Shown: piece after piece, positions 2,935-33,060 of the stretch
How positions within the stretch are numbered: the stretch's first letter is position 1
How the letters are laid out: each line of letters begins with the position of its first letter
IMG/VR virus record: IMGVR_UViG_3300032330_001692
Location: 29,829 to 93,828 of that record
DNA: 64,000 nt
Origin: a virus
Lineage: Duplodnaviria > Caudoviricetes
Reading direction: 5' to 3' (one strand)
Position numbers and translations under genes: made by a program
Notes under the pieces: generated by a model
Seen by the model: only the letters and a program-made list of their open reading frames with translations
What the model was told of the DNA's origin: nothing
The model's database searches: none

Positions 2935-3633
2935 ATGGCCAAAAAGCAATACTTTGCAATTCTCGACACCGAAACCACGATGGCAAATACCGTGGCTGAT
3001 TTGGGTATTATTATCGTTGACCGTCAAGGCAAGATTTATAATCAAATGGCAGTTTTGATTAACGGTCAATACGGCACGCATGAATTGTTCCATGACAAAC
3101 ATGCCAACGACGTTTGGGGTTATGGTGGACTGGAAAAGCGCAAACTGGCCTATACCAAAATGCTGGATTCAGGTTCGCGTATGCTGGCATCAGTTAATGC
3201 CATCAACCGTTGGATTCAGCAGGCCGTCGGCAAATACAATCCCGAATTGACTGCCTATAATCTGAGTTTCGACCTGGACAAATGTGTGAATACTGAGATT
3301 GATTTGAGTGGATTTAATAGCTCATTCTGTTTGTGGCAAGCTGCCGTGGGTAACGTCTGCAATACCAAACAATATAAACAGTTTGTGCTTGACAATCACG
3401 GTTTCAACGCTCCGACGGGCCACGGCAATATGTCCATGAAAACCACCGCAGAAATGGTTGCCGGGTTTATCTCGGGTGAGTTTAAGGCAGAACCGCATAC
3501 TGCACTGGAAGATGCCCGAGATTTTGAATTGCCCATTCTGGTGGAGATTCTGAAAAAGAAAAAGTGGCGTGAAAAGATTACCCCTTATGTGTGGCGTGAT
3601 TTTCAGGTGAAGAATCATTACTCGGTGAAATAA
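2935..3633 (+). CDS. DEDDh 3'-5' exonuclease
   Basis: LDTET, AYN-x2-FD, HTALEDA. Confidence 0.85.
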   Translation: MAKKQYFAILDTETTMANTVADLGIIIVDRQGKIYNQMAVLINGQYGTHELFHDKHANDVWGYGGLEKRKLAYTKMLDSGSRMLASVNAINRWIQQAVGKYNPELTAYNLSFDLDKCVNTEIDLSGFNSSFCLWQAAVGNVCNTKQYKQFVLDNHGFNAPTGHGNMSMKTTAEMVAGFISGEFKAEPHTALEDARDFELPILVEILKKKKWREKITPYVWRDFQVKNHYSVK

Positions 3634-3634
3634 T

Positions 3635-3967
3635 ATGCACGACCTTATCCGTCAAACGATAGGGTTTCTCCAAATCGAGAAACCCTATAAAATCGTGCTC
3701 AAACCCGCACTAAAAGGTAATGCAGCAGAGTATTATGAAATGCGCAGAAAGGGTAAACTGGTTTCGCATTTAATCCGGGTTTCAATCGACAATCTGCATA
3801 CTGATTCCCGGTGCTTGAATACTTTGATCGTGCATGAGTTTATCCACGCCTGGCAAGCCGAGAATAACATTGTGGAGATTCACGGCCGTGAATTCAGGAA
3901 AATGGCTAAATCTCTGGGCAACATTTTGAATCTGGACAATATCTATATTAAGGGCACAGATGTTTAA
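3635..3967 (+). CDS. SprT-like zinc metalloprotein
   Basis: HEFIH...HGREF. Confidence 0.75.
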   Translation: MHDLIRQTIGFLQIEKPYKIVLKPALKGNAAEYYEMRRKGKLVSHLIRVSIDNLHTDSRCLNTLIVHEFIHAWQAENNIVEIHGREFRKMAKSLGNILNLDNIYIKGTDV

Positions 3968-4127
3968 TATTCTAGAACTTAAACAAATCAAGGAAATTGT
4001 AGATGAAATCCTTGAGATTCATGACGCGCAAAATAATATTCATATACCAGAAAAGGGTTTTGAATATCTCAATACTCAACGTGCCATGCTCGAAGATCGA
4101 TTGCAAAAGATATTCGACGATTATTAA
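3960..4127 (+). CDS. hypothetical protein (55 aa)
   Basis: open frame filling gap before hairpin. Confidence 0.5.
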   Translation: MFNILELKQIKEIVDEILEIHDAQNNIHIPEKGFEYLNTQRAMLEDRLQKIFDDY

Positions 4128-4157
4128 CCAAACCGAATAAGGGTTTACCCTTATTCG

Positions 4158-4196
4158 GGCGCCAAAATTATATCACTAATTTTGGGGCCGCGTCCA
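4158..4196 (-). promoter_or_regulatory. leftward promoter, copy 5 (degenerate -35)
   Basis: TGGACG-N18-TATAAT-TTTGGCGCC. Confidence 0.55.
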
Positions 4197-4259
4197 GCGG
4201 CCTGGTGATTGTTTTTTGCTATGGCCGCCTGGCAGACCATAGGCTGTGCCTATGGGCCG

Positions 4260-4298
4260 GGCGCCAAAATTATACTATGCCTGCGAAAAAGCTGTCAA
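4260..4298 (-). promoter_or_regulatory. leftward sigma70-like promoter, copy 6
   Basis: TTGACA-N18-TATAAT-TTTGGCGCC. Confidence 0.7.
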
Positions 4299-4489
4299 TA
4301 GGTGAAAGCACCTAGTAGACCGCCTGGCGGAACTGTGCTAGCGAAAGACCCCACAAAAAGTAGGTGTTGCCTGGCGCGCTGGAATCGGTTATTATTCTTT
4401 TGTCGGTTGTTCGGACAGTTCTTTAAAAACCAGCGCGATTCAGGCCCTGCCGGGACGGCACTGCCAAAGACCCCTAAAAAAATAGGGGG

Positions 4490-22052: not shown

Positions 22053-22154
22053 GGAAGAGTTGCTAATGTTGGCCTTAGGGAGACCCTTATAAAGTCTTTA
22101 AGCCCTCACCAGATAAGTGAGTGTACGTGGGTTCGATTCCCACCTCTTCTACCA
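22053..22154 (+). tRNA. tRNA with UAU anticodon (Ile) and long variable arm
   Basis: CT-TAT-AA loop, CTCAC/GTGAG extra arm, T arm, ACCA. Confidence 0.75.
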
Positions 22155-22162
22155 GATTTAAT

Positions 22163-22246
22163 GCGCGAGTGGTGTAATGGTAGCCACGCTGGTCTTAGAA
22201 GCCAGTGCCGTGAGGCGTGAGAGTTCGAGTCTCTCCTTGCGCACCA
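22163..22246 (+). tRNA. tRNA-Leu(UAG)
   Basis: class II cloverleaf. Confidence 0.92.
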
Positions 22247-22398: not shown

Positions 22399-22707
22399 TT
22401 GAGTAAAAAGTACACAATCACTGCCGTTATCTACGACAAGCGGGGCAACGTGCTTAGTCTAGGAAAGAATAGTTATCACAAGACTCATCCACTGCAAGCA
22501 CACTACGCAGCGGTGGCCGGAGAACCGCATAAAATGTTTCTTCACGCTGAAATTGATGCCATTATCAAGTGCCAGGATTTAACTCGGGCTCACAAACTTG
22601 TTGTCTTTCGGTATCGTGAAGACGGTTCTCCGGCCTTGGCCCGGCCGTGCAGAGTGTGTCAGGCTGCTATTCAGAAAACTCCCATTAAAATCATCGAGCA
22701 TACTTAA
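22399..22707 (+). CDS. zinc-dependent deaminase-fold protein
   Basis: HAE...PCRVC. Confidence 0.8.
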   Translation: MSKKYTITAVIYDKRGNVLSLGKNSYHKTHPLQAHYAAVAGEPHKMFLHAEIDAIIKCQDLTRAHKLVVFRYREDGSPALARPCRVCQAAIQKTPIKIIEHT

Positions 22708-23800: not shown

Positions 23801-23964
23801 ATTAAGTTAAGCGTCTGCTGTAGCGAGGCGATCAGTTACTTCATACTATAGAGAAAGGTTAATCCTTGTGGTTAACCAAAGCGGTAAAATAATTCGGCGT
23901 GCCGCGATAGACAAAACCCGATAAAACCTGAGAACACACATTCTCAGCGGACGCTTAACTTAAT
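23801..23964 (+). ncRNA. Y-RNA-like element A
   Basis: 20-bp terminal stem, GTTACTTC at 23835, immediately upstream of Ro60 gene. Confidence 0.65.
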
Positions 23965-23989: not shown

Positions 23990-25312
23990 ATGTCTAGCCT
24001 AAACAAGCGCGTGTATGCTCCTCAAGCCCGTGCTGTAAACCATGCTGGTACTGCTGTGCGCGCTATCACTCCAGAAAAGCAACTGGTGCGCATGACCCTA
24101 GCTAATATGCTTTGGGAAAACCAATTCTACGTCAACGGAGAAAAATCCGCTGACGTGATCGCCAAGTTGGTGCAACAGTGCGATGCCCAGTTTGTTTCAA
24201 ACTTGGCCATCATGGCACGTACGCAATTCAAACTGCGTCACGTTCCACTACTGTTGACCCGAGAACTGGCACGCACTGGCCGCCTTGCGGCACATGTGCT
24301 CAACGCTGTAATCCAGCGTCCGGACGAAATGTCCGAGTTCCTGTCAATCTACTGGCGGGACGGCAAGACCCCTATCGGCAATCAAGTCAAGCGGGGTCTT
24401 GCAACTGCTTTTGCAAAGTTTTCGGAATACGCACTTGCAAAGTGGGATAAGAACAGCAGCGCAGTCCGGATGCGTGATGTAATGTTCTTGGTGCATCCGA
24501 AGCCTGAGAGCCCTGCTCAGGCTGCACTGTTTAAGCGCGTTGCCGATAACGCGCTCAAAACCCCAGATACCTGGGAATCGGAACTCTCAGCTGGAGCCGA
24601 TAAACGTGAAACGTTTACTCGACTGATGCAAGAGAAGAAGCTGGGAGCTTTGGCATTTTTGCGTAATCTGCGCAACATGACCCAAAGCGGCGTTCAGGAC
24701 TCTCAGATTCGTGAGTACGCACAGACTCTAGATGTCACAAAGGTTCTGCCTTTCCGTTACATCGCAGCAGCCCGTATTGTTCCCGAATATGAGGATATGC
24801 TGGAACAGCTGATGTTTCGCAGCCTAGAGTCACACGAAAAGCTGCCTGGTGTAACCAAGTTGTATGTGGATGTATCAGGCTCCATGTTTGGTACTAAGAT
24901 TTCTCAGAAGTCAGACTTGGAGCGTTTCGACGCTGCTGCTGCTTTAGCCGTGCTGTGCAGAGAAATCTGCGAAACGGTTGAAATCTACAGTTTCTCGGAT
25001 CGTGCTGTGCGTGTACCACCTCGCCGTGGTTTTGCCCTAGTTGAAGCAATTCGCCAGTCACAAGCACACAACGGTACCAACTTGGGGCGTTCGCTAAACT
25101 CCACTGGATCGCCTTGCGATCGAGTGATTGTGTTTACCGATGAACAGTCACACGACCGTCCGGGTAAGCCCGGGTTCGGTGCTAAGGGATACATTGTTAA
25201 CGTAGCAGCCTATGAAAATGGTGTAAATCACGACCACTGGCTGACTATTTCAGGATTCTCTGAAGCCATCGTTGACTATATTCAAGCCGTTGAAAAGGAC
25301 GTAAGTCCTTAA
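23990..25312 (+). CDS. Ro60/TROVE-vWA RNA-binding protein (Rsr-like)
   Basis: LRHVP, IQRPDE, EYALAKW, HPKP, TWE, AFLRNLRN, LPFRY, vWA DVSGSM, TDEQ. Confidence 0.93.
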   Translation: MSSLNKRVYAPQARAVNHAGTAVRAITPEKQLVRMTLANMLWENQFYVNGEKSADVIAKLVQQCDAQFVSNLAIMARTQFKLRHVPLLLTRELARTGRLAAHVLNAVIQRPDEMSEFLSIYWRDGKTPIGNQVKRGLATAFAKFSEYALAKWDKNSSAVRMRDVMFLVHPKPESPAQAALFKRVADNALKTPDTWESELSAGADKRETFTRLMQEKKLGALAFLRNLRNMTQSGVQDSQIREYAQTLDVTKVLPFRYIAAARIVPEYEDMLEQLMFRSLESHEKLPGVTKLYVDVSGSMFGTKISQKSDLERFDAAAALAVLCREICETVEIYSFSDRAVRVPPRRGFALVEAIRQSQAHNGTNLGRSLNSTGSPCDRVIVFTDEQSHDRPGKPGFGAKGYIVNVAAYENGVNHDHWLTISGFSEAIVDYIQAVEKDVSP

Positions 25313-25596
25313 CTGGAGCAAGGCGATAAGCAAGAGCTCGTACTAATATTTAGCGGTATACCTTATCATTACTAACGCTAAATTACCTTAGTACTGCCGC
25401 GGTGGCAGTGTCCATCCACCAAGTAGTGCGAAAACTACTAAAAAATCCACGCTAGGAACCGCAAGCAGCCGGTCAGAGCAAGAGAGTGGTCAGGACGAAT
25501 ATGTACAAGAGTAGCATGTAGAGTTGCGTACACAACTCGAGGGCTTGAATTCTCTTGCCGGCGACACCGGCTATGTCCTCTAAACTGCAAGGTTTA
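25296..25596 (+). ncRNA. uncharacterised multi-stem RNA
   Basis: ORF-free, at least five hand-found helices. Confidence 0.5.
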
Positions 25597-25671
25597 GAAA
25601 AGTGTATGTTGTCGGATGCGGTTACTTCTTTAGGCGAAAAAACACCGCATCAATTTGTTACTACACTTTTC
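25597..25671 (+). ncRNA. Y-RNA-like element B (minimal)
   Basis: GAAAAGTGTA/TACACTTTTC and GATGCGGT/ACCGCATC stems, GTTACTTC. Confidence 0.7.
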
Positions 25672-25672
25672 C

Positions 25673-25780
25673 AAGCCTTGACGCTGTTATTGGTTACTTC
25701 ATAGGTTCGATTCCTATATGCGGTTACATACTGCGTATAGCTGCAATGGCGCAGCACACCAATACAAATTTTTCAGGCTT
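25673..25780 (+). ncRNA. YrlA-like Y RNA (element C) with permuted tRNA domain
   Basis: GTTACTTC, T arm, closed acceptor stem, D arm, terminal stem. Confidence 0.8.
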
Positions 25781-25788
25781 CCATTTAC

Positions 25789-25890
25789 GTCTTAGTGTTT
25801 TACACAGTTACTTCTCTTACCATAAAATTCTGGCCTTACAGCTTGAATCAAGAAATGCCGCATAGGCGCTCTGTGTTTTTTGTTCTAGAC
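25789..25890 (+). ncRNA. Y-RNA-like element D
   Basis: ACACAG/CTGTGT stem, GTTACTTC, GTCT/AGAC closure. Confidence 0.6.
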
Positions 25891-25912
25891 TCCTTTAACT
25901 ACCACCATTACC

Positions 25913-26095
25913 ATGACCATACGAGTAATCAAAGCAGCAGTTCGTGAAGTAGCCTGCCAACATTGTGGCTCTCTGTTAGAGTACAGTCCCAGTGACGTGC
26001 AAGAAGCTTGGCATGAAGACTACTTAAACGACGGTACCTGGGTACCGTATATTGAGTGCCCTGAATGTGAAAAACATGTCCGACTCACACACTGA
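25913..26095 (+). CDS. Zn-ribbon protein
   Basis: CQHC...CPEC. Confidence 0.7.
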   Translation: MTIRVIKAAVREVACQHCGSLLEYSPSDVQEAWHEDYLNDGTWVPYIECPECEKHVRLTH

Positions 26096-28811: not shown

Positions 28812-28887
28812 CCAACTTTAGCTGATGTGGTCATAGCGCTGGTTTGAAGCTCCAGTGAACTTGGTTCGATTCCAAGAGGTTGGGCCA
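28812..28887 (+). tRNA. tRNA-Phe(GAA)
   Basis: cloverleaf, CCA. Confidence 0.8.
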
Positions 28888-28991
28888 TAAGTTTAGTATA
28901 CGGTATAGCTCAGTTGAATAGAGCGAGTGATAAAATACTAGTTAGCACGTAGCGCGTCGGGTAAGAGCCGACTACCGTTTACTAAACTTAT
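28887..28991 (+). ncRNA. tRNA-like RNA with extended acceptor stem, no CCA
   Basis: ~19-bp stem, canonical D arm, T-arm-like hairpin. Confidence 0.6.
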
Positions 28992-32568: not shown

Positions 32569-32640
32569 AAAACTAGGGTCAGCACGGTGGGACGTGCAGG
32601 TAGACAATACTGCATACAAGGTTCGAATCCAAACTCTAGG

Positions 32641-32940
32641 CACGATGGTTGTAATTCCCCTGAAACGAATGTGAGCAAGACGCGGGTTCGACTCCCGCCA
32701 GGTCCACCAGAAGTACTTTTGTCCATGGAGTTGGGAACGGATAGATAAACCGTGAAAGTATTTCTGATGGGCCTGCCCAGGTTTCGATTGCGCAAGCTAG
32801 TGGATGGAGCAACTCGGTAGGCGATGACCGTAAATCAAGCAAAACACAATAAATGCAAACGATAGCATTTTTGCTGTAGCGGCCTAAAAAACTTGCACAG
32901 CTGAGGTTTTGGCCGGTTCCTTATCAAAGAATACCGGCCC
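32641..32940 (+). ncRNA. ssrA: circularly permuted two-piece tmRNA, tag (A)ANDSIFAVAA
   Basis: acceptor piece ends CAGGTCCACCA (32709); coding piece starts GGGCCTG (32769) with G3-U70; tag ORF 32855-32887. Confidence 0.9.
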
Positions 32941-32941
32941 T

Positions 32942-33060
32942 TTAGAATAACGCTAATGTGAAGGGACTCCGTGCACGGTGAGCCTGGATCTGAGTCAGCG
33001 AGTTGATAGTTGGAGTGGACTGACCCACAAAGAGTAACTATCGAATTGGCGTTATTCTAA
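32942..33060 (+). ncRNA. stem-closed RNA between tmRNA and tRNA-Thr
   Basis: 16-bp terminal stem, internal hairpins. Confidence 0.5.

What the first reader, a model, noticed from the sequence alone, without database searches (positions are those of the whole stretch)
25673..25780. Circularly permuted tRNA mimic (YrlA-type) in unit C
Seen in order: T arm ATAGG-TTCGATT-CCTAT, acceptor-like hairpin ATGCGGT/ACTGCGT closed by a short loop, D arm GCTGC-AATGGC-GCAGC, with the GTTACTTC helix in place of the anticodon arm. This T-acceptor-D order is the known YrlA architecture and is the strongest evidence that the array encodes Y RNAs.
Basis: partly seen in the sequence, partly recalled or inferred. 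Interest (0 to 1): 0.75.

Follow-up and report, generated by a model that had tools for sequence, protein, structure and literature searches.

The report
Phage Y RNA with tRNA-like domain
This 108-base stretch just downstream of a phage Ro60 (Rsr) gene is a small non-coding RNA of the known YrlA type. It carries a tRNA look-alike written in rotated order on a stem, so it is a real but already described kind of element.

Summary
At 25701-25755 (+) there is a T arm, an abutting 7-bp hairpin with a 5-nt loop, a 3-nt linker and a D arm, closed by a 7-bp helix (25688-25694 with 25758-25764). A strict scan finds this arrangement once in the window and 3 times in 200 shuffles.

It lies 361 nt downstream of a TROVE+vWA Ro60/Rsr gene on the same strand, in a 94-kb IMG/VR phage record with 22 tRNA genes called in the window and a permuted tmRNA.

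The same module, preceded by the same GUUACUUC motif, flanks Rsr genes in:
- Xanthomonas, Caulobacter, Brevundimonas, Rhizobium and Streptomyces phages;
- the nearest metagenomic relatives;
- more than 15 further viral contigs.

A covariance model built from 81 such modules, without the window, ranks this element first in the window (36.9 bits, E 3e-8). Across the family all 16 base pairs covary.

Rfam's YrlA model (RF02553) does not detect it. It detects the cultured-phage examples only below its cut-off.

GUUACUUC is not a helix: it is the end of the anticodon-like helix plus the variable-loop motif (the published YUAY).

This is a new member of a known kind. The scan has noted the same kind of locus in other phage genomes before.

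The parts
23990..25312 (+). Ro60/Rsr orthologue (440 aa, TROVE + vWA), the presumed protein partner
   Evidence: ORF. Pfam TROVE E 9.6e-13, with weak vWA_Ro60 and VWA_2 matches. 25-53% identical to annotated Ro-like/TROVE proteins of many phages.
25673..25780 (+). Whole unit C: the YrlA-type Y RNA candidate as delimited by the outer helix (true ends unknown)
   Evidence: Fold. The same scaffold occurs downstream of rsr in relatives L001 and L002. R2 top hit covers 25693-25756.
25673..25680 (+). Outer helix, 5' strand (pairs with 25774-25780, one bulged U). Less certain, because 25673-25677 is also the 3' end of unit B's stem.
   Evidence: conserved sequence in L001 and L002
25680..25686 (+). 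GACGCUG: degenerate counterpart of the proposed Rsr-contact motif GNCGAAN0-1G
   Evidence: Same position as an exact match to the motif in relative L169's tRNA-like unit. Motif definition from PMC4201824.
25688..25694 (+). Anticodon-stem-like closing helix, 5' strand (pairs with 25758-25764, 7 bp)
   Evidence: Helices at the same position in other units and phages have different sequences.
25693..25700 (+). GUUACUUC motif: the end of the closing helix plus a 6-nt variable-loop equivalent. It contains the YUAY of YrlA and ends in the pyrimidine before the T stem.
   Evidence: the same motif precedes the modules in Tenjo, RHph_TM61, Kela, L001 and 23 viral contigs.
25701..25717 (+). T arm (5 bp, loop UUCGAUU)
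   Evidence: The family's T stem is paired in 99.5% of cells and all 5 pairs covary.
25718..25736 (+). Acceptor-stem-like hairpin (7 bp, 5-nt loop UACAU, no free end, no CCA)
   Evidence: In the family this hairpin has a different sequence in every member yet is 87.7% paired, and all 7 pairs covary.
25737..25739 (+). Linker AUA (the U8-A9 equivalent plus one extra A)
   Evidence: Relatives mostly have UA, UC or UG.
25740..25755 (+). D arm (5 bp, compact loop AAUGGC holding the GG that would meet the T loop)
   Evidence: An identical loop occurs in L149, and similar compact loops in L135, L150 and L153.
25758..25764 (+). Closing helix, 3' strand
25774..25780 (+). Outer helix, 3' strand
25597..25671 (+). 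Neighbouring unit B: a Y-like RNA with the same motif (25621) and an inner helix 25615-25622/25644-25651, but no tRNA-like insert
   Evidence: Long-stem covariation is seen by eye against L001 and L002.
25789..25890 (+). Neighbouring unit D: a Y-like RNA with the same motif (25807) and a helix 25802-25807/25871-25876, but no tRNA-like insert
23801..23964 (+). Unit A upstream of rsr: the same motif (23835) inside a roughly 20-bp terminal stem, read by eye
   Evidence: no short closing helix was found by script

Best explanation
25673-25780 is a phage gene for a YrlA-type Y RNA.

Shown: the sequence can fold as a stem carrying a circularly permuted tRNA body. That body has a T arm, a closed acceptor-like hairpin and a D arm, with the RNA's own stem in place of the anticodon arm. 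It lies beside a Ro60/Rsr gene on the same strand. The same design, with the same GUUACUUC junction motif and covarying helices, recurs beside Rsr genes in many unrelated phages.

Inferred from published work on Salmonella, Mycobacterium and Deinococcus Y RNAs and on Thermus phage phiLo:
- The RNA is cut out of the rsr transcript together with units B and D.
- Its stem region binds the outer face of the phage Rsr ring.
- The L-shaped tRNA-like end, held together by the T-loop/D-loop GG contact, is recognised by host tRNA enzymes (TruB-type pseudouridylation, possibly RNase P, since the hairpin has the 7 bp that RNase P prefers).
- That end tethers Rsr to an effector that reads the tRNA elbow.

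The ribonucleoprotein would then steer the handling or decay of structured RNA during infection, in a phage that also brings its own tRNA set and tmRNA.
For: - Anatomy and chance control.
- Rsr gene.
- The same T-acceptor-D modules beside rsr in Tenjo, CcrColossus, Kabachok, RHph_TM61, Kela and L001.
- Several of those modules are Rfam YrlA matches at E 3e-10 to 8e-3.
- Models built without the window find 25693-25756 at 26.8 bits (E 1e-5) and at 36.9 bits (E 3e-8, best in the window).
- Family covariation: 93.6% of cells paired, 16 of 16 pairs with changes on both sides, 0 of 500 shuffles as high, and slid controls at 34-51% paired.
- A subclass without a V arm and with a compact D loop, to which this element belongs, occurs in 23 viral contigs.
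- Among the 20 metagenomic loci with the most similar Rsr (56-68% identity), 12 carry a module scoring at least 40 bits. One of them (L169) has an exact GNCGAANG motif.
- The closing helix differs in sequence from unit to unit and phage to phage but always ends at the G or GU of the motif.
- No tRNA is called on either side, so this is not a junction between two tRNA genes.
Against: - Rfam RF02553 gives no match here, even at E <= 10.
- The proposed Rsr-contact motif is only partly kept (GACGCUG).
- The D arm is atypical: a 5-bp stem and a 6-nt loop, no A21, and A15 opposite C48, so no standard Levitt pair.
- The linker is one base longer than UA.
- RNAfold's MFE prefers a 10-bp acceptor hairpin that eats three T-stem pairs.
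- Junctions of neighbouring tRNA genes score almost as high with my models (34.4 and 33.4 bits), so the model score alone does not discriminate.
- The outer helix competes with unit B's stem for 25673-25677.
- The two relatives in the viral collection (L001, L002) have a non-tRNA insert in the corresponding unit.
- There are no transcript, binding or modification data.
Confidence: 0.8

Rival explanations
1. An Rsr-independent tRNA decoy. The tRNA-like body works on its own, for example by soaking up a host tRNA-cleaving defence nuclease or a tRNA-modifying enzyme, and the adjacency to rsr is only operon packaging.
For: The phage invests heavily in tRNA supply: 22 tRNA genes plus a tmRNA. The Rsr-contact motif is degenerate in this unit. 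Earlier notes of this scan describe similar tRNA mimics paired with a protein other than Ro60 (unchecked by me).
Against: The module sits inside the same scaffold (closing helix, GUUACUUC) as the sister units. It matches the modules beside rsr in many phages. YrlA RNAs tested so far are Rsr-bound (PMC4201824).
Confidence: 0.1
2. A decaying remnant of two tandem copies of one tRNA gene: the T arm and 3' acceptor strand of the first, and the 5' acceptor strand and D arm of the second, with no present function.
For: The window is a dense tRNA array. Tandem identical tRNAs would give exactly this order with complementary acceptor strands. Some relatives keep a discriminator plus CCA in the hairpin loop. 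There is a weak Rfam tRNA match at 25644-25725 (17.2 bits).
Against: - The outer tRNA halves are absent and are replaced by a precise closing helix with tRNA-like junction spacing.
- The non-tRNA GUUACUUC motif abuts the T stem, as in more than 20 other phage modules.
- Helices are intact, and the element tops a family model.
- Family-wide covariation argues for selection on the fold.
- ARAGORN calls nothing here.
Confidence: 0.07
3. Chance resemblance inside an AT-rich spacer or inside the 87-codon ORF 25602-25865.
For: An open frame spans the site.
Against: About 0.015 such arrangements are expected per shuffled window. The ORF has no Pfam match. The region is an array of covarying RNA units in relatives.
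Confidence: 0.02

Closest known systems
YrlA (Y RNA-like A; Rfam RF02553; Chen et al. 2014 RNA 20:1715, PMC4201824; structure in Wang et al. 2018, 10.1101/312249, PDB 6CU1)
   Same: - Encoded next to rsr on the same strand.
- A stem formed by the two ends.
- YUAY at the start of the variable loop.
- T arm, closed acceptor-like hairpin, UA-containing linker and D arm, in that order.
- GG in the D loop and a canonical T loop for the elbow.
- No anticodon loop and no CCA end.
- YrlA-related sequences were already reported in 22 bacteriophages.
   Different: - Not detected by RF02553.
- No V stem-loop: a 6-nt variable loop only.
- Compact D arm (5 bp with a 6-nt loop).
- No standard 15:48 pair.
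- The 5' GNCGAA-type motif is degenerate.
- It lies in an array with three sister units that share the scaffold but carry other inserts.
Mycobacterium smegmatis YrlA (PMC4201824)
   Same: A 7-bp acceptor-like stem. In M. smegmatis this makes the RNA an RNase P substrate that is then CCA-tailed.
   Different: Cleavage is untested here, and the loop here has no CCA.
Thermus phage phiLo Ro60 with Yrl1/Yrl2 (NAR 2025, PMC12135203)
   Same: A phage-encoded Ro60 with Y-like RNAs encoded next to the gene. In that system binding and a complex with host PNPase were shown in vitro.
   Different: In the passages I read, the phiLo RNAs were picked by a CGAA motif and a stem-bulge-stem shape, with no tRNA-like domain mentioned. 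The Rsr is only about 25% identical.
Circularly permuted two-piece tmRNA (Rfam RF04321 / RF01850), present in this same window at 32617-32978
   Same: A tRNA-like domain written in permuted order in a phage tRNA cluster.
   Different: The tmRNA is cut into two pieces, has a free CCA end and a tag reading frame. The element here has a closed hairpin and no coding part.

Membership tests
YrlA-type Y RNA (Chen 2014 criteria) | Encoded within about 4 kb of a Ro60/Rsr (TROVE) gene, on the same strand | tested here: met
   rsr is at 23990-25312 (+) and the element starts at 25673 (+).
YrlA-type Y RNA (Chen 2014 criteria) | Conserved T stem-loop with a tRNA-type 7-nt loop | tested here: met
   25701-25717, a 5-bp stem with the loop UUCGAUU.
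YrlA-type Y RNA (Chen 2014 criteria) | [quoted passage not shown] | tested here: met
   25718-25736, 7 bp with a 5-nt loop. This helix covaries across the family.
YrlA-type Y RNA (Chen 2014 criteria) | UA dinucleotide between the acceptor-like stem and the D arm | tested here: met
   AUA at 25737-25739, i.e. UA is present with one extra A.
YrlA-type Y RNA (Chen 2014 criteria) | Conserved D stem-loop with tRNA-type loop residues | tested here: inconclusive
   GG is present, but the stem is 5 bp and the loop only 6 nt. A15 faces C48, so the Levitt pair is not standard. The same compact form occurs in L149, L135 and L153.
YrlA-type Y RNA (Chen 2014 criteria) | YUAY at the start of the variable region and a pyrimidine at its last position | tested here: met
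   UUAC at 25694-25697 and C at 25700. The same GUUACUUC is seen in other phage modules.
YrlA-type Y RNA (Chen 2014 criteria) | GNCGAAN0-1G motif near the 5' end (proposed Rsr contact) | tested here: inconclusive
   GACGCUG at 25680-25686 keeps G, C, G and the final G but not AA. Relative L169 has an exact match at the same position.
YrlA-type Y RNA (Chen 2014 criteria) | A stem closing the tRNA-like domain in place of the anticodon arm | tested here: met
   25688-25694 with 25758-25764. An outer helix 25673-25680/25774-25780 also forms, but it overlaps unit B's stem.
YrlA-type Y RNA (Chen 2014 criteria) | Bound by Rsr; carries pseudouridine 55 and dihydrouridine | not testable with these tools
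   Needs co-immunoprecipitation and modification mapping.
Rfam RF02553 (YrlA) | Score at or above the gathering cut-off of 69 bits | tested here: not met
   No match at E <= 10 on 25250-25950. The best match in the whole 94-kb record lies elsewhere, at 15 bits. The modules I compared with in cultured phages also fall below the cut-off, at 30-56 bits.
tRNA (Rfam RF00005 / ARAGORN) | Cloverleaf with an anticodon arm and a free acceptor end | tested here: not met
   ARAGORN calls nothing here. The Rfam tRNA match at 25644-25725 scores 17.2 bits against a cut-off of 29, with the D and anticodon arms unaligned.

The most novel reading that the evidence does not exclude
In this phage clade the Y RNAs form a cassette system. 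A constant handle (outer stem, short closing helix, GUUACUUC) carries interchangeable effector inserts.

The tRNA-like insert sits in a different unit in different relatives:
- the second downstream unit here;
- an upstream unit in L001, L166 and L180;
- the third downstream unit in L169;
- none found in L002, L162 or L163.

In addition, because this copy has a 7-bp acceptor-like stem, host RNase P might open the hairpin, as in M. smegmatis. That would give a two-piece tRNA-like Y RNA with a free 3' end, parallel to the phage's own two-piece tmRNA.
Probability: 0.15. Interest if true: 0.6.

Novelty: new member of a known kind. Interest (0 to 1): 0.3.

Why it matters
The element adds a clear phage example to the YrlA family, and it shows two practical gaps.

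First, the curated Rfam model and its cut-off miss this element entirely, and they miss every phage YrlA module I looked at at the gathering threshold.

Second, a compact subclass is common in viral contigs. It has no V arm, GUUACUUC abuts the T stem, and the D loop is 4-6 nt.

The function of the tRNA-like end of YrlA is still unknown in any organism. Phage loci such as this one hold one Rsr gene, four sister RNAs with one handle, and only one tRNA mimic. That gives a compact genetic system in which to ask what the mimic recruits.

Tried and rejected
- **Rfam, all families, at E <= 10 on 25250-25950.** It returned only a weak tRNA match and a spurious plastid UTR match.
- **RF02553 on the whole record.** Nothing at the site.
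- **Loose pattern (AAGCCTT, gap, GTTACTTC) in viral contigs.** Only L007 showed a T-acceptor-D module, so I dropped these loci.
- **Tighter pattern with the AATGGC D loop in metagenomes.** No match.
- **MAFFT alignment of the modules without a V arm (A5).** It misaligns the 3' half, so I did not use it for a model. I used Infernal-made alignments instead (A4).
- **Nucleotide search of the locus against GenBank phages.** It found only short coding matches and no RNA homologue.
- **L003, Rsr 47% identical.** No similar RNA downstream, but one module upstream.
- **Reading as a tRNA gene or as a tandem-tRNA junction.** Rejected, because no tRNA is called on either side.
- **Reading as coding sequence.** Rejected.
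- **Supplementary alignments of Chen 2014.** Not held in the library.

Full report
**Setting**

The window is the last 64 kb of a 93,828-base IMG/VR virus record, estimated 89% complete. Between about 17.3 and 33.1 kb it holds 22 ARAGORN tRNA genes and a circularly permuted tmRNA, all on the + strand. Inside this cluster the ORF 23990-25312 (+) encodes a 440-aa protein. It has a TROVE domain (E 9.6e-13) and a weak Ro60-type vWA domain. It is 25-53% identical to Ro-like/TROVE proteins annotated in Ralstonia, Xanthomonas, Microcystis, Caulobacter, Brevundimonas, crAss-like, Rhizobium, Streptomyces, Gordonia, Vibrio and Thermus phages. The next plausible ORF starts at 25913. The 600 nt in between hold only spurious-looking frames without Pfam matches, and they fold better than shuffles (z = -3.75).

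**The observation**

- T arm at 25701-25717, a 5-bp stem with a 7-nt tRNA-type loop.
- Acceptor-like hairpin at 25718-25736, 7 bp including two G-U pairs, with a 5-nt loop.
- A 3-nt linker.
- D arm at 25740-25755, a 5-bp stem with a 6-nt loop that contains GG.

RNAfold on 25673-25780 adds a 7-bp closing helix (25688-25694 with 25758-25764) and an outer helix (25673-25680 with 25774-25780, one bulged U). The z-score is -3.2.

The thermodynamic optimum lengthens the acceptor hairpin to 10 bp at the cost of three T-stem pairs. The tRNA-like fold is only 2.3 kcal/mol less stable, and it is the fold supported by comparison with relatives.

A strict scanner for the T / abutting hairpin / linker / D arrangement hits only this site in the real window. 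It hits 3 sites in 200 dinucleotide shuffles of both strands.

GUUACUUC (25693-25700) is not a helix. Its G and U finish the closing helix, and the remaining six bases are the variable-loop equivalent.

**Relatives**

Searching viral contigs with the Rsr protein gave two close loci (L001 at 68% and L002 at 66% identity) and one more distant locus (L003).

Downstream of rsr, L001 and L002 have the same two scaffolds as the window's units B and C: a conserved outer stem, a short helix ending at GUUACUUC, then an insert. The short helix has a different sequence in each phage. Their unit C inserts are not tRNA-like.

L001 does carry a second T / 7-bp hairpin with a 5-nt loop / D module in a unit upstream of rsr. 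Its acceptor and D stems have quite different sequences.

The same scanner then found such modules next to rsr in Xanthomonas phage Tenjo, Caulobacter phage CcrColossus, Brevundimonas phage Kabachok, Rhizobium phage RHph_TM61 and Streptomyces phage Kela. Nearly all are preceded by GUUACUUC or a one-to-two-base variant, and many lie in arrays of several units.

Rfam's YrlA family (RF02553) matches several of these at E 3e-10 to 8e-3. All fall below its 69-bit cut-off. That ties the comparison set to the published family.

**Model tests**

- R1: a covariance model built from ten of those modules, window excluded. It finds 25693-25756 at 26.8 bits, E about 1e-5, second in the window.
- Exact pattern: GUUACUUC followed directly by a T arm occurs in 23 viral contigs. 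Nearly all continue with a closed hairpin and a D arm, many with a compact 4-6-nt D loop. L149 has a D loop identical to the window's. The window's element therefore belongs to a common viral subclass without a V arm.
- Alignment: R1 collected 81 modules from 28 loci. On that alignment 93.6% of cells are paired and all 16 pairs show changes on both sides. No shuffle reaches the observed values, and slid controls drop to 34-51% paired. The alignment was fitted to the model, which favours the structure. The acceptor-like helix has no sequence conservation yet is 87.7% paired.
- R2: built from these 81 modules, again without the window. It ranks the element first in the window (36.9 bits, E 3e-8).
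- Caveat: junctions between neighbouring tRNA genes score nearly as high (34.4 and 33.4 bits), as Chen et al. warned. They differ in having unpaired 'acceptor' positions and no GUUACUUC. No tRNA is called on either side of the finding.

**Closest metagenomic relatives**

Eighty loci were retrieved with the Rsr alignment. The 20 with the most similar Rsr (56-68% identity) carry arrays of GUUACUUC units on both sides of rsr. Twelve of them have at least one module of 40-73 bits.

In L169 the third downstream unit has an exact GNCGAANG motif, a closing helix, GUUACUUC abutting a T arm that differs from the window's by one compensated pair, a hairpin whose loop begins with a discriminator plus CCA, a UA linker, and a canonical D arm. 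The window's GACGCUG at 25680-25686 occupies the same position as that motif and is a degenerate version of it.

**Comparison with the literature**

Chen et al. 2014 (PMC4201824) define YrlA by:
- proximity to rsr on the same strand;
- a 5' GNCGAAN0-1G motif;
- YUAY at the start of the V region;
- nearly invariant T and D stem-loops with a variable acceptor-like stem-loop between them.

They report such RNAs in 254 bacteria and 22 phages.

Wang et al. 2018 (10.1101/312249) solved the tRNA-like domain. They stress the UA linker, the pyrimidine before the T stem, and the closed acceptor stem ('circularly permuted tRNAs').

M. smegmatis YrlA has a 7-bp acceptor-like stem. It is cut by RNase P and CCA-tailed.

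A phage Ro60 (Thermus phage phiLo) binds two phage-encoded Y-like RNAs and host PNPase in vitro (PMC12135203).

The element here meets the architectural criteria. It deviates in the D arm, the missing V arm, the degenerate 5' motif and the failure to score with RF02553.

**Mechanism**

Shown here: the fold potential, the genomic linkage to rsr, family membership by architecture, and covariation.

Inferred by analogy:
- transcription with rsr and processing into separate units;
- binding of the stem to the phage Rsr ring;
- an L-shaped tRNA-like end recognised by host tRNA enzymes and by a still unknown effector;
- a role in handling structured RNAs during infection.

I put this at 0.8. The rivals are an Rsr-independent tRNA decoy (0.10), a decayed tandem-tRNA junction (0.07) and chance (0.02).

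**Verdict**

This is a new member of a known kind, of moderate to low surprise.

Earlier notes of this scan describe the same kind of locus (a phage Ro60-like gene with several handle-sharing RNAs, one carrying a permuted tRNA) in other phage genomes. The same array was also noted on this window.

Noticed in passing
window 25617-25626 and 25718-25727; also 25644-25650: A 10-nt direct repeat links unit B's inner helix and unit C's acceptor-like hairpin. As a result 25644-25650 is perfectly complementary to the 5' strand of the hairpin (25718-25724). In a common precursor that could form a non-permuted acceptor-plus-T-arm minihelix. This is what the weak Rfam tRNA match (17.2 bits) picked up. 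Alternative pairing or chance: not resolved.
   Followed up: partly
window 25673-25677: The last five bases of unit B's long stem are also the first five of unit C's outer helix, so the two helices exclude each other in one transcript. The same overlap appears in L001, L002 and L169. The true ends of the mature RNAs are therefore uncertain.
   Followed up: partly
L153 504-561 (-), L146 2097-2160 (-), L169 2210-2271: In several relatives the loop of the acceptor-like hairpin begins with one base followed by CCA, as if a discriminator and CCA tail were encoded. This fits an origin from tandem or permuted tRNA genes, or processing to a free CCA end.
   Followed up: no
L123, L126, L128 (cultured phages Tenjo, CcrColossus, RHph_TM61): Rfam RF02553 matches the phage YrlA modules at only 30-56 bits, under its 69-bit cut-off. 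Routine annotation therefore misses all of them. These phages carry arrays of up to five such modules upstream of rsr.
   Followed up: partly
L002 (rsr 3001-4332), L162, L163: These close relatives have four or five GUUACUUC units around rsr, but no T-acceptor-D module scoring above about 25 bits within the fetched flanks. If the flanks are complete, this is an exception to 'at least one tRNA-like Y RNA per Rsr locus'.
   Followed up: partly
window 25296-25596: About 300 nt between the rsr stop and unit B are non-coding and strongly structured in the RNAfold prediction. They lack the GUUACUUC motif, and the relatives L001 and L002 have shorter, different sequence here.
   Followed up: no
window 22100-22188 and 28846-28925: The family models also hit T arms that are followed by odd tRNA-like sequence. 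One lies at about 22126-22142, in a stretch upstream of tRNA-Leu (22163) that ARAGORN does not call as a tRNA. The other lies just after tRNA-Phe (28812-28887). These may be further tRNA-like non-coding RNAs or junction artefacts.
   Followed up: no
window 22399-22707 (+): A 102-aa ORF inside the tRNA cluster matches the cytidine/deoxycytidylate deaminase zinc-binding domain (PF00383, E 1.4e-6). It could be a nucleotide or a tRNA-type deaminase.
   Followed up: partly
window 32617-32978 (+): A circularly permuted two-piece tmRNA of the betaproteobacterial type (tag peptide ANDSIFAVAA). It hints at a betaproteobacterial host. The only nucleotide match to a cultured phage near the locus was to a Limnohabitans phage.
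   Followed up: no
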